A stretch of DNA of 64,000 nt from Escherichia coli (GTDB taxonomy: Bacteria; Pseudomonadota; Gammaproteobacteria; Enterobacterales; Enterobacteriaceae): assembly GCF_030013595.1 (NCBI RefSeq), contig NZ_CP122768.1, one strand, 5' to 3'. Shown one piece after another: positions 52,365-54,562 of the stretch. Each line of letters begins with the position of its first letter. The first letter of the stretch is position 1. The notes under the pieces are model-generated. The model saw only the letters and a list, made by a program, of their open reading frames with translations. It did no database searches and was not told the DNA's origin. Made by a program: the position numbers and the translations under genes.

Positions 52365-52390
<26 letters not shown>

Positions 52391-52910
52391 TCAGCAACCC
52401 CGGTATCAGTTCATCCAGCGCGGCTGCTTTGTTCATGGCTTTGATGATATCCCGTTTCAGGAAATCAACATGTCGGTTTTCCAGTTCCGGAAAACGCCGC
52501 TGCACCGACAGGGGGATCCCGTCGAGAATACTGGCAATTTCACCTGCGATCCGCGACAGCACGAAAGTACAGAATGCGGTTTCCACCACTTCAGCGGAGT
52601 CTCTGGCATTCTTCAGTTCCTGTGCGTCGGCCTGCGCACGCGTAAGTCGATGGCGTTCGTACTCAATAGTCCCTGGCTGGAGATCTGCCTCGCTGGCCGC
52701 CCTGTAATCCTCAACCTCTTTACGGAGTTTTTCATTTTCGATATCAGCTTCCCTCTGCGCATACCACTGAATTGCCATGGCGGTATCAAATACAGATTCA
52801 ACGCCCTTACCACCTCCGGAGACGCAAGGGAGTCCCTGAGACTGCCAGCGTTCAATCGTTCGCGGATCCACGTTGAAAATTTCGGCAAGTTTCTTTTTAT
52901 TAACCTTCAT
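52365..52910 (-). CDS. nu1: terminase small subunit Nu1
   Basis: 181 aa; winged-HTH N-terminus; near-identical to remembered lambda Nu1. Confidence 0.9.
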
Positions 52911-53087
52911 GAAACAGTCTCACAATAAATACAGGGTCCGACATGAAAGTGCCCGAAAATGACTTTTTTATGCGTTTTCATGTCGGACCTTTTACGGATT
53001 CGATATTAGAAAAAACAAATAGTTATGTTCGAGAAGTACCGACATGATTTTCCCCGGAAAATTTTCATAAATAGCGAAAACCCGCGA

Positions 53088-53099
53088 GGTCGCCGCCCC
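53088..53099. other. cosN cohesive-end site
   Basis: AGGTCGCCGCCC is the reverse complement of the lambda 12-nt cohesive end GGGCGGCGACCT; ~190 bp upstream of Nu1 as in lambda. Confidence 0.7.
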
Positions 53100-53163
53100 G
53101 TAACCTGTTGGATCGACGGAAAGGACCCGTAAATGAGATGCTTTGTTGTTTTCTTGTTGGCTG

Positions 53164-53192
53164 TTCAACTACATGCAAGCATATGGCATAAT
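53164..53192 (+). promoter_or_regulatory. putative sigma70 promoter of the bor-locus cargo gene
   Basis: TTCAAC - 17 bp - CATAAT about 60 bp upstream of the ATG at 53253. Confidence 0.35.
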
Positions 53193-53252
53193 ATTTAATT
53201 GATAATCTAATAGTTATAAAAACTTGCCCCAAAACCTTAACGGAGACTAAGA

Positions 53253-53945
53253 ATGTCCAGAGAAGGAACGTTAGATTTATTGCAAGAAGTTGAAGAAACC
53301 GTTGAAATATTAAAAGATACGCAACAAATAAAACCAGTAAAGGTTAAATCAATACTTGAAAATTTAAGAAGCGCATTAGAATACGTTGCGAATGATAGTT
53401 ATGAAAAACATACCACTAACCAATCAACCCCTCGGCCAAAAATTTATTTCCCATACGGCGAGAAAAAATTTTTAGATGCTTTCTTTATTAAAAAATTAAA
53501 CTGCCAGCAACCTGAATTATCTCCATTATATGCAGTTTTTGTTTCAATCCAAGACTATCAAACTGGTAATAACTGGCTTGGAATGATGTGTAACCTCACG
53601 AACGAAGCAAAACATAGGCAACCAATCCCATTGAGTGAAGATAGTATTGTTCGAGGAATAGATGTTAATATCAATGGGTTTGGATTAATTAAGGCAGATG
53701 CTACATCAAAAATCATTTTCAGAGATAATTTCACCAATGGACAGAGAATTGAAGACTTCACCATTGAAAATGGTAAAGTTGAAAAATCAGGGAACGGAAT
53801 ACCCATCAATATTAACATGACCGAAGAGAAAAAAATAAGATTCCACGGTACAGATTATGAGGTTATTCCTTTTGTAGAGTTATGTCTAAAAGAAATAAGA
53901 GATTTTGTTAATGAAGCATATGAAATTTTAGATGCCATTGAATAA
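53253..53945 (+). CDS. hypothetical protein, function unknown (cargo at the bor locus)
   Basis: 230 aa ORF on the strand opposite the late operon, between cos and Rz; AT-rich; own promoter-like signals; no motif I recognise. Confidence 0.6.
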   Translation: MSREGTLDLLQEVEETVEILKDTQQIKPVKVKSILENLRSALEYVANDSYEKHTTNQSTPRPKIYFPYGEKKFLDAFFIKKLNCQQPELSPLYAVFVSIQDYQTGNNWLGMMCNLTNEAKHRQPIPLSEDSIVRGIDVNINGFGLIKADATSKIIFRDNFTNGQRIEDFTIENGKVEKSGNGIPININMTEEKKIRFHGTDYEVIPFVELCLKEIRDFVNEAYEILDAIE

Positions 53946-54040
53946 TAATGATTAAGTAACATGGCAGGTAATCTATTTAAACCGGCCATGTTACAAATCA
54001 TTGACGTAGAGAAAAAATGTAAAGTATATCCTTTATATAC

Positions 54041-54562
54041 TCAATTGTAATTTGATGTCCTCACCGACTCATAAACGCGCTCACACGTCATTCCAGCCCG
54101 GTAGCTTTCGTCAGATCGCTCAGCATAATATCGAGCTTCTTCTGCAAGGCGGCCGAGCATGTCGGCGAGCACTGCGGCGTCGGCTCCGGCTGTTTTGCTT
54201 CTGACGGCAGCGGCAAGATCTGCGGTGTGCTTTGCGGCGTCCAGGCGGGCGGCAAGCTTTGTTGCTTCGGTGCGCAGCTGGTTAACAGTGGCAGACAGGC
54301 CAGCAGCAGTGGCAGCAGATTTAGCTGCTTGTGCTTGTGCATCTTTTACAGCCTCATCACGGGCAATTATGCGCCCTTGTTCAATCATGCGGGCTGCGGT
54401 CTGCGCGTTCGCTGTTTGCGATGATTCCGCGCTGTCACGTTCCGCCCACTTTTTTTCCCAACCGCGGCTACACCATATATTTCCAGCGATAAACGCACTG
54501 GTCACTAGTACCGCGGCAACAATAAGCTGGGAGCACAGGCTCACTGGTCTATCCCCCAGCAC
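54041..54562 (-). CDS. Rz: i-spanin Rz
   Basis: N-terminal TM segment then Ala/Gln-rich coiled coil; overlaps endolysin 3' end. Confidence 0.75.
54088..54342 (-). CDS. Rz1: o-spanin Rz1 (embedded in Rz)
   Basis: +1-frame ORF wholly inside Rz; lipobox-like LLTSC then Pro-rich mature part; true start may be downstream of the track start. Confidence 0.5.

What the first reader, a model, noticed from the sequence alone, without database searches (positions are those of the whole stretch)
53100..53950. Unassigned 230-aa cargo gene at the bor locus, between cos and the spanins
Where lambda carries bor, this prophage has one AT-rich 230-aa gene on the strand opposite the late operon, with its own sigma70-like promoter (TTCAAC-17-CATAAT). 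I find no motif, TM segment or signal peptide I can tie to a described family. The cos-to-lysis interval is a recurrent cargo slot in lambdoid prophages (lysogenic-conversion and superinfection-exclusion genes), so this is my strongest candidate for an undescribed single-gene accessory or defence function.
Basis: partly seen in the sequence, partly recalled or inferred. Interest (0 to 1): 0.7.

Follow-up and report, generated by a model that had tools for sequence, protein, structure and literature searches.

The report
Solo HEPN-like gene in prophage cargo slot
The 230-aa gene is real and belongs to a large, unnamed protein family with a probable HEPN (RNase-type) fold that sits alone in prophage cargo slots where anti-phage genes are known, so it is a testable but unproven candidate for a new single-gene phage-defence nuclease.

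Summary
The ORF at 53253-53945 (+) is real. It is 32.6% G+C against 52% for the window, soluble, and lies between cos and Rz/Rz1 on the strand opposite the late operon.

Pfam, NCBIfam, PADLOC and PDB sequence searches return nothing, and PHROGs gives only phrog_13652, "unknown function". It is nevertheless not an orphan: a profile finds 759 clusters of standalone proteins of about 230 aa across many phyla.

The family-invariant motif N117-x-x-K120-H121 sits where HEPN enzymes carry R-N-x3-H, but the arginine is missing.

All close relatives examined lie in the same lysis-to-terminase slot, next to at least four kinds of packaging module. One distant relative lies in the P2 cos-proximal defence hotspot. 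No conserved partner gene was found.

phi80 carries the validated defence gene taiEcA in the same slot and orientation. TaiEcA and HepS are a different, canonical HEPN family with no detectable sequence relationship to this one.

Best reading: a solo HEPN-like, phage-triggered RNase. This is inferred, not shown.

The parts
53253..53945 (+). 230-aa CDS of the cargo gene (26.4 kDa, pI 5.0, soluble)
   Evidence: ORF list; relatives; hydropathy; phrog_13652, unknown function, E 9e-107
53253..53615 (+). Residues 1-121: the HEPN-like helical part. Helices 3-23 and 28-53, an insert carrying the invariant F66-P67 and near-invariant Y68, then helix 108-121
53346..53396 (+). Conserved face of helix 2: K32, E36, R39, S40, D/E43, Y44, D48. 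Corresponds to the conserved acidic residue in helix 2 of HEPN domains
   Evidence: Conservation in 70 diverse members; HEPN description in PMC3710099
53598..53615 (+). T116-N117-E-A-K120-H121: putative active-site motif at the C-terminal end of helix 3. It keeps the N-x3-H spacing of canonical R-N-x3-H, but the Arg is replaced (T in 55 of 70 members, R in 1 of 70)
   Evidence: motif position according to PMC3710099
53616..53852 (+). Residues 122-200: beta-rich insert between HEPN helix 3 and the last helix. It is the least conserved part, and I propose it as the recognition (sensor) module
   Evidence: Secondary structure of the model; top-residue frequency 0.29 against 0.60-0.64 in the core; 56% pairwise identity against 82-88% in the close clade
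53853..53942 (+). Residues 201-230: C-terminal helix (204-227), taken to be HEPN helix 4
53164..53192 (+).
   Evidence: Sequence; not listed by the scan; not conserved in relatives
53210..53223 (+). Alternative -10-like element (TATAAA, 53215-53220). It lies in a block (TTAGnTATAAnATG) shared with the upstream regions of relatives in other prophages
   Evidence: Alignment A3; coordinates
53242..53245 (+). Shine-Dalgarno-like GGAG, 7 nt before the ATG
53946..54003 (.). Strong stem-loop directly after the stop codon (-24.3 kcal/mol, z -6.2; -24.5 kcal/mol on the other strand). No clear U-tract follows on the + strand. Possibly a terminator or insulator between the cargo gene and the late operon
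   Evidence: (I5)
53087..53098 (.). cosN-like sequence that marks the left edge of the slot
52365..52910 (-). Nu1-type small terminase (flank; late operon)
54041..54562 (-). Rz-type spanin (DUF2514), with embedded Rz1 at 54088-54342 (flank; late operon)

Best explanation
The gene encodes a stand-alone HEPN-like protein carried as prophage cargo.

I propose the following mechanism:
1. The gene is transcribed from its own promoter in the lysogen, against the direction of the Q-dependent late operon.
2. The protein stays inactive, probably as a dimer or higher oligomer as in other HEPN enzymes.
3. A component of a superinfecting phage switches it on. The variable beta insert (residues 122-200) would recognise that component.
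4. The conserved site then cuts RNA (tRNA or mRNA) and aborts the infection. [quoted passage not shown]

Shown here: the ORF, the family, the predicted fold, the motif and its position, the solo status, and the prophage slot.

Inferred: expression in the lysogen, RNase activity, the trigger, the sensor role of the insert, and the defence phenotype.
For: **Fold**
- The AF2 model has pLDDT 89.6.

**Motif**
- H121 is invariant in 70 of 70 members; N117 and K120 are each present in 69 of 70.
- The motif lies at the end of helix 3 before the link to the last helix. It has a polar Asn four residues before the His, a conserved acid in helix 2, and an insert between helices 2 and 3. All of this matches the HEPN description in PMC3710099.
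- That paper also documents a HEPN family (Parep1/8) that keeps the His but has lost the Arg.

**Conserved core, variable insert**
- Top-residue frequency is 0.60-0.64 in the core against 0.29 in the insert.
- In the close clade, pairwise identity is 82-88% in the core against 56% in the insert.

**Context**
- Every close relative examined lies between the lysis cassette and the packaging genes, on the strand opposite the late genes.
- This holds next to at least four types of packaging module.
- A relative at 32% identity lies between the P2 gpA and portal genes. That is the experimentally defined cos-proximal defence hotspot (PMC9122126).
- The same slot and orientation in phi80 hold taiEcA, which is expressed in the lysogen and is protective (PMC11364771).
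- There is no conserved neighbour in 53 genomes.

**Precedent**
- Solo HEPN prophage defence proteins triggered by tail proteins exist: HepS (PMC13043305) and Tha (PMC11087260).
Against: - The canonical arginine of Rx4-6H is absent. That Arg was needed for activity in the KEN domain and in PrrC (PMC3710099).
- Foldseek against the PDB gives nothing significant: best E 0.09, HEPN hits at E 0.8-0.9.
- There is no profile-level link to any HEPN Pfam family, to HepS or to Tai.
- No PADLOC model matches beyond a 45-residue BrxC hit at E 0.008.
- Of the 10 distant relatives whose neighbours were annotated, most lie among housekeeping genes such as an ABC transporter, GroEL and parC. Only 2 lie next to phage or defence genes.
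- No deposited phage genome carries a relative.
- Nothing here measures expression or phenotype.
Confidence: 0.4

Rival explanations
1. The protein has a HEPN-like fold but does not cleave RNA. It would protect the lysogen by binding and blocking a protein of a competing phage, as described for Tai (tail-assembly interference), or by another form of exclusion.
For: - The catalytic Arg is missing.
- Tai proteins in the same slot were described as assembly blockers with no nuclease role mentioned (PMC11364771).
- The variable insert would fit a binding module.
Against: - The invariance of H121, K120 and N117 across phyla looks like a catalytic or ligand site rather than a rapidly co-evolving protein interface.
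- The Tai family itself carries an invariant RNxxxH motif and matches HepS, which is a nuclease.
Confidence: 0.2
2. It is an accessory gene unrelated to phage defence. Examples would be a stress-responsive RNase or toxin, a regulator of host physiology (lysogenic conversion), or an anti-defence factor that benefits the phage.
For: - The slot also carries non-defence cargo: iss/bor and glycosyltransferase morons next to relatives.
- Many distant relatives sit among housekeeping genes, including one next to an archaeal-type ribosomal protein cluster.
- No defence database matches it.
Against: - It has no signal peptide or TM segment, so it is not Bor/Iss-like.
- It shows a patchy, horizontally scattered distribution with one copy per genome.
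- It recurs in two independently validated defence hotspots.
Confidence: 0.25
3. The resemblance to HEPN is only that of a generic four-helix bundle. The protein would then have an unrelated role, for example a phage-beneficial role near cos in packaging or lysis.
For: - Foldseek finds no significant PDB match.
- The gene sits next to cos.
Against: - It lies on the strand opposite the late operon.
- It occurs next to unrelated packaging systems, at prophage ends after the lysis genes, near cI/cro, and in non-phage contexts.
- The position of the motif and the accessory HEPN features agree with the HEPN description.
Confidence: 0.12

Closest known systems
HepS / Tai family (HepS of Gifsy-1, PDB 9OIJ; TaiEcA = phi80 gp52)
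   Same: - A single, self-sufficient gene carried as prophage cargo.
- TaiEcA sits 'before terS', between the lysis genes and cos. It is divergent from the Q-driven late operon and expressed in the lysogen. That is the same slot and orientation as here.
- Both have a HEPN-type helical fold whose motif lies at the end of a helix, followed by an insert and a final long helix.
- Both are about 200-230 aa.
   Different: - No detectable sequence relationship: hhalign probability is below 1%, and the family profile does not hit 9OIJ, although 9OIJ is in the library.
- HepS and Tai keep the canonical R-N-x3-H motif. This family has T/x-N-x2-K-H.
- The insert here is an 80-residue all-beta module. In the TaiEcA model it is a helix plus a short hairpin.
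- No Ati-like counter-defence ORF lies next to the gene.
- The trigger and the RNA target are unknown.
HepT-type HEPN toxins of HEPN-MNT toxin-antitoxin modules (4nqf, 8xdj, 7ae2, 5yep, 1jog)
   Different: - No MNT antitoxin or any other conserved neighbour.
- No Rx4HxY motif.
- An additional beta insert; the protein is about 100 residues longer.
- About 10% identity and no Pfam DUF86/HEPN match.
Tha (S. aureus prophage HEPN defence)
   Same: A prophage-encoded single HEPN effector that also senses the phage: it combines a recognition region and a nuclease in one protein and is triggered by a phage structural protein.
   Different: - Tha is 301 aa, with a C-terminal HEPN domain (RNSIMH) and a separate N-terminal region.
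- It lies in the lysogeny module, paired with the inhibitor Ith.
- Here the HEPN-like part is N-terminal and interrupted by the insert, and there is no partner.
Bor / Iss of lambda-like prophages
   Same: Same slot and same divergent orientation between cos and Rz.
   Different: Bor and Iss are lipoproteins of about 97 aa. This protein is a 230-aa soluble cytoplasmic protein with no signal peptide or lipobox and no sequence similarity to them.

Membership tests
HEPN superfamily | Up-down four-helix bundle resembling solved HEPN domains | tested here: inconclusive
HEPN superfamily | Rx4-6H motif (Arg and His both present) | tested here: not met
   His is invariant (70 of 70), with Asn four residues before it (69 of 70). 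The Arg position is T in 55, V in 6, N in 5 and R in 1 of 70 members. PMC3710099 records HEPN families that lost the R (Parep1/8) or the H. This argues against 'canonical HEPN RNase' more than against the fold.
HEPN superfamily | [quoted passage not shown] | tested here: met
   T116-H121 ends helix 108-121. E36 (90%) and R39 (94%) lie in helix 28-53. Residues 54-107 form the insert, compared with the description.
HEPN superfamily | Profile-level sequence similarity to a described HEPN family | tested here: not met
   No Pfam hit for the query or for any of 70 members. No NCBIfam hit. The PDB profile search finds only apolipoprotein noise.
HEPN superfamily | Catalytic His superposes on the HEPN catalytic His; active site formed across a dimer; metal-independent RNase activity | not testable with these tools
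   No residue-level structural alignment, multimer prediction or biochemistry was available.
HepS / Tai family | Sequence homology to HepS or TaiEcA | tested here: not met
   hhalign of A2 against the Tai alignment gives probability 0.15% and below 0.3% with TaiSalA added. The A2 profile does not hit 9OIJ at E<=10, whereas the Tai profile does at E 3.8e-4.
HepS / Tai family | Solo gene in a prophage cargo slot, divergent from the late operon | tested here: met
   compared.
HepS / Tai family | Activation by, or binding of, the tail-tip protein J; tRNA anticodon cleavage | not testable with these tools
   Requires experiments.
HEPN-MNT (HepT/MntA) toxin-antitoxin | Adjacent MNT nucleotidyltransferase antitoxin | tested here: not met
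   The window has only cos and Rz as neighbours. No neighbour family recurs in 3 or more of 53 loci.
Bor/Iss lipoproteins | Signal peptide with lipobox; about 97 aa | tested here: not met
   Hydrophilic N-terminus; maximum KD19 of 0.77; 230 aa.
Known defence systems in PADLOC v2 | Match to any system protein model | tested here: not met
   Only a 45-residue BrxC hit at E 0.008. There are no hits for 10 distant members.

The most novel reading that the evidence does not exclude
This is the founding example of a widespread, unnamed HEPN-derived family. The catalytic arginine has been replaced (N-x2-K-H site, perhaps helped by R39 from helix 2), and a variable beta domain has been inserted into the HEPN fold as a built-in sensor. 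The result would be a one-protein, phage-triggered RNase whose trigger and RNA target differ from those of HepS/Tai and Tha.
Probability: 0.3. Interest if true: 0.7.

Novelty: new variant of a known kind. Interest (0 to 1): 0.55.

Why it matters
If the reading is right, three things follow.

- **A new defence family.** It would add a large, currently unannotated family to the single-protein HEPN defences: 759 clusters at 50% identity, and about 2% of complete E. coli genomes.
- **The hotspot generalises.** The lysis-to-terminase slot of lambdoid prophages would be shown to host more than one kind of defence gene, beyond Tai/HepS.
- **A natural test of HEPN chemistry.** The family would show whether a HEPN site can work without its arginine.

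The gene is short, has no partner and is easy to clone, so the hypothesis can be tested directly.

Tried and rejected
**Family and structure searches that gave nothing**
- Pfam on the query and on 70 members found nothing.
- NCBIfam found nothing.
- PADLOC found only noise.
- PDB sequence and profile searches found only noise.
- Foldseek against the PDB gave nothing significant. The papillomavirus E2 TAD hits, at E about 0.1 and TM 0.14, were rejected as noise.
- tblastn against 50,697 deposited phage genomes gave no match.

**Membership in known families**
- Tai membership was rejected by hhalign.
- I looked for HepS in Gifsy-1 of LT2 to get its sequence. It is absent from that strain's prophage. 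The question was settled instead through the PDB entry 9OIJ.

**Partner genes and regulatory RNAs**
- A search for a conserved partner gene or antitoxin found none.
- I looked for an Ati-like small ORF on the late strand. The only candidates are TTG-start ORFs that span cos, which I rejected.
- A search for tandem or ToxI-like repeats upstream found none.

**Other readings considered**
- A Bor-like lipoprotein was rejected on hydropathy.
- An HPt/CheA-P1-like phosphotransfer domain was rejected. In HPt domains the His lies mid-helix, to my knowledge in an HxxKG context, and those hits align only about 90 residues.

**Literature**
- Searches by accession number and by PHROG id found nothing.

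Full report
**1. The observation**

The window holds an ATG-initiated ORF at 53253..53945 on the + strand, 230 aa long. It is 32.6% G+C, in a window of 51.9% with flanks of about 55%.

To its left lie a Nu1-type small terminase (52365..52910, -) and a cosN-like AGGTCGCCGCCC at 53087. To its right lie Rz (54041..54562, -) with an embedded Rz1 lipoprotein gene, then the lysozyme and the holin.

The protein is soluble and acidic: the highest 19-residue hydropathy mean is 0.77 and the pI is 5.0, with no signal peptide.

They match only 8 of 12 consensus positions and fall below the scan's threshold. The region holds no more promoter-like sites than its shuffles (5 against 4.8).

When the upstream regions of relatives from other prophages are aligned, a different block is shared (TTAGnTATAAnATG). 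In the window this is TATAAA at 53215-53220, about 33 nt before the ATG. Which element fires, if either does, is not known.

A strong stem-loop follows the stop codon at 53946-54003 (-24.3 kcal/mol, z -6.2).

**2. The gene belongs to a large unnamed family**

Family libraries:
- PHROGs places it in phrog_13652, "unknown function" (E 9e-107).
- Pfam, NCBIfam and the PDB sequence search give nothing. PADLOC gives only a 45-residue BrxC hit at E 0.008.

Relatives:
- The word-indexed search finds 59 clusters. All are about 230 aa, all that carry a name are from Enterobacteriaceae, and every name given is "hypothetical protein".
- A profile search of 1.84 billion cluster representatives finds 759 at E<=1e-3. 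Nearly all are standalone proteins of 220-250 aa.
- Foldseek against AFDB50 returns 99 hits at E<=1e-3; all but one of the 50 listed are "Uncharacterized protein". They come from Proteobacteria, Bacteroidota, Firmicutes, Spirochaetes and CPR bacteria.
- A scan of species-representative genomes adds Deinococcota, Chloroflexota, Planctomycetota, Chlamydiota and a Woesearchaeota MAG.
- None of 70 diverse members has a Pfam domain. None of 10 has a PADLOC hit.

Prevalence:
- Among 5,426 complete E. coli genomes, 102 carry one copy. Four carry the window's allele and 98 an allele about 69% identical in DNA. All are annotated as hypothetical.
- No deposited phage genome has a relative. Three plasmid records do.

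**3. Structure and motif**

AlphaFold2 with a 30-sequence alignment gives a confident model (pLDDT 89.6, pTM 0.75). Its elements in order are:
- helices 3-23 and 28-53;
- a loop and short helices (54-104);
- helix 108-121;
- a beta-rich region (strands between 127 and 197);
- a last helix, 204-227.

In 70 diverse members the invariant positions are L42, F66, P67 and H121. Near-invariant positions are K32, E36, R39, S40, Y44, Y68, Q100, W108, N117 and K120. The sequence T116-N117-E-A-K120-H121 ends helix 108-121.

The HEPN survey (PMC3710099) makes four statements that bear on this:
- The residue after the Arg is usually N, D or H.
- A conserved acid sits in helix 2.
- Inserts between helices 2 and 3 are common.

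All four fit this family. The exception is the Arg itself, whose position holds T in 55, V in 6, N in 5 and R in 1 of 70 members. The same paper records a family (Parep1/8) that keeps the His but lost the Arg and has other conserved basic residues. Here K120 and R39 are candidates for that role.

The beta insert between helix 3 and the last helix is the least conserved part. Its top-residue frequency is 0.29, against 0.60-0.64 for helices 2 and 3. In the close clade its pairwise identity is 56%, against 82-88%.

**4. Context**

The close clade:
- In E. coli S43 the same allele sits in the same slot of a decayed prophage.
- In Enterobacter and Raoultella prophages, and in the IMG/VR contigs that carry close relatives (at least 45% identity), the gene is always on the strand opposite the late genes. 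It lies between the lysis cassette and the packaging genes.
- This holds next to several packaging modules: Nu1/A, HNH plus Terminase_4 plus TerL, and another TerL type.
- It also holds in E. coli next to a DUF1441 small terminase with a ClpP-capsid fusion head module.
- In Acinetobacter it follows the lysis genes at the prophage end.

More distant relatives:
- A relative at 32% identity lies between a P2 gpA-like replication gene and the portal gene. Rousset et al. showed this cos-proximal locus to be a defence hotspot (PMC9122126).
- Another lies beside cI/cro.

No partner gene:
- Among 53 species genomes, no neighbour family recurs in three or more loci within three genes on either side. 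The gene works alone or with host factors.

A caveat on the broader family:
- Of the 10 distant relatives whose neighbours were annotated, most sit among housekeeping genes such as an ABC transporter, GroEL and parC.
- Only 2 are next to phage or defence genes: an endolysin with a methyltransferase, and an anti-phage HerA.
- The prophage association is therefore firm for the enterobacterial and Acinetobacter clade only.

The slot is variable:
- E. coli 536 and 317 carry iss/bor and a TonB-like gene there.
- Enterobacter prophages add glycosyltransferase cargo genes.

**5. Comparison with known systems**

*Tai and HepS.* He et al. 2024 (PMC11364771) found that Tai defence genes lie mostly "before terS". 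The phi80 gene taiEcA (JX871397 44,365-44,979) is divergent from the Q-driven late operon, is made constitutively in the lysogen, and has a counter-defence gene next to it. That is the same slot and orientation as the gene studied here.

I noticed that the TaiEcA family has an invariant R94-N95-x3-H99, and that TaiSalA has RNARSH. The Tai profile also matches HepS (9OIJ) at E 3.8e-4 over that motif. HepS is a solo HEPN anticodon nuclease of Gifsy-1, activated by the tail-tip protein J (PMC13043305).

The family studied here is not detectably related to either. hhalign probabilities are below 1%. Its profile does not hit 9OIJ, although that entry is in the library. The TaiEcA model shows a comparable layout: the motif at a helix end, then an insert with a short hairpin, then a long last helix.

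*Tha.* Tha has a C-terminal HEPN domain with RNSIMH, is 301 aa long, and has a partner inhibitor (PMC11087260).

*Conclusion.* The gene works like this kind of system in its genetic layout and probably in its fold. It fails the sequence and motif tests for membership in those families.

**6. Mechanism and confidence**

The best-supported reading is a solo HEPN-like protein, expressed from the lysogen, that a superinfecting phage switches on through the variable beta insert. It would then cut RNA with the N-x2-K-H site. I give this 0.4.

The fold, motif, solo status and slot are shown. Expression, catalysis, trigger and phenotype are inferred.

Rival readings:
- A non-catalytic blocker of a phage protein (0.2).
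- An accessory function unrelated to defence (0.25).
- A generic helical bundle with an unrelated role (0.12).

**7. Verdict**

No library or paper searched names this family. Its kind, a single-protein HEPN prophage defence, is already known. I therefore rate it a new variant of a known kind, with interest 0.55.

Noticed in passing
L047:4366-4980 (-) (phi80 gp52 = TaiEcA); alignment A4: The Tai tail-assembly-inhibition family carries an invariant canonical HEPN motif: R94-N95-x3-H99 in TaiEcA and RNARSH in TaiSalA. Its profile matches HepS (PDB 9OIJ) at E 3.8e-4 over that motif. Tai (2024) and HepS (2026), both linked to the tail protein J, therefore look like one HEPN family. The word HEPN does not occur in the Tai paper's main text.
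   Followed up: partly
L051 (E. coli MB06022), locus 3200-4344: In one of the four E. coli genomes with the window's allele, the gene is interrupted by an IS1 insertion, and an IS3 element lies close by. This recalls the transposon inactivation of taiEcA under autoimmunity, but it is a single case.
   Followed up: no
window 56080-56235 (-): The prophage carries tRNA-Thr(UGU) and tRNA-Asn(GUU) between Q and the holin, about 2 kb from the candidate nuclease gene. HepS cleaves tRNA-Thr among others. Any connection is speculative, and such tRNAs are common in lambdoid prophages, to my knowledge.
   Followed up: no
window 55100-55750: A second AT-rich islet (35-38% G+C) lies between the lysozyme and the holin. 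It holds two small ORFs: 55202..55498 (+), 98 aa, phrog_25324; and 55523..55741 (-), 72 aa, YdfR-like, phrog_2735. Both are of unknown function and have no PADLOC hit.
   Followed up: partly
window 53946-54003: A very stable hairpin (-24.3 kcal/mol, z -6.2) sits directly after the stop codon and folds equally well on both strands. It lies where phi80 is annotated with a putative terminator after Rz. Its role as a terminator or insulator for convergent transcription is untested.
   Followed up: partly
L002:3381-5912 (-) and the same genes in L017, L018, L026-L028, L033, L034: In Enterobacter-type prophages the gene's neighbours in the slot are a 485-aa and a 196-aa protein matching PHROG glycosyltransferase or glucosyltransferase 'moron' families. 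The slot therefore accumulates several cargo genes.
   Followed up: partly
L009:507-1232; L075: One family member lies beside an archaeal-type ribosomal protein and RNA polymerase subunit cluster (S13, S4, S11, RpoL, L18e, L13, S9, Rpb6). Another is in a Woesearchaeota MAG. The family therefore seems to reach archaea.
   Followed up: no
AFDB entry A0A2G2Q1D2 (family member, 223 aa): One family member in AFDB50 is labelled 'B3/B4 tRNA-binding domain-containing protein'. No Pfam B3_4 hit appeared in the 70 members scanned here, so the label may be spurious. It is still a lead for the beta insert.
   Followed up: no
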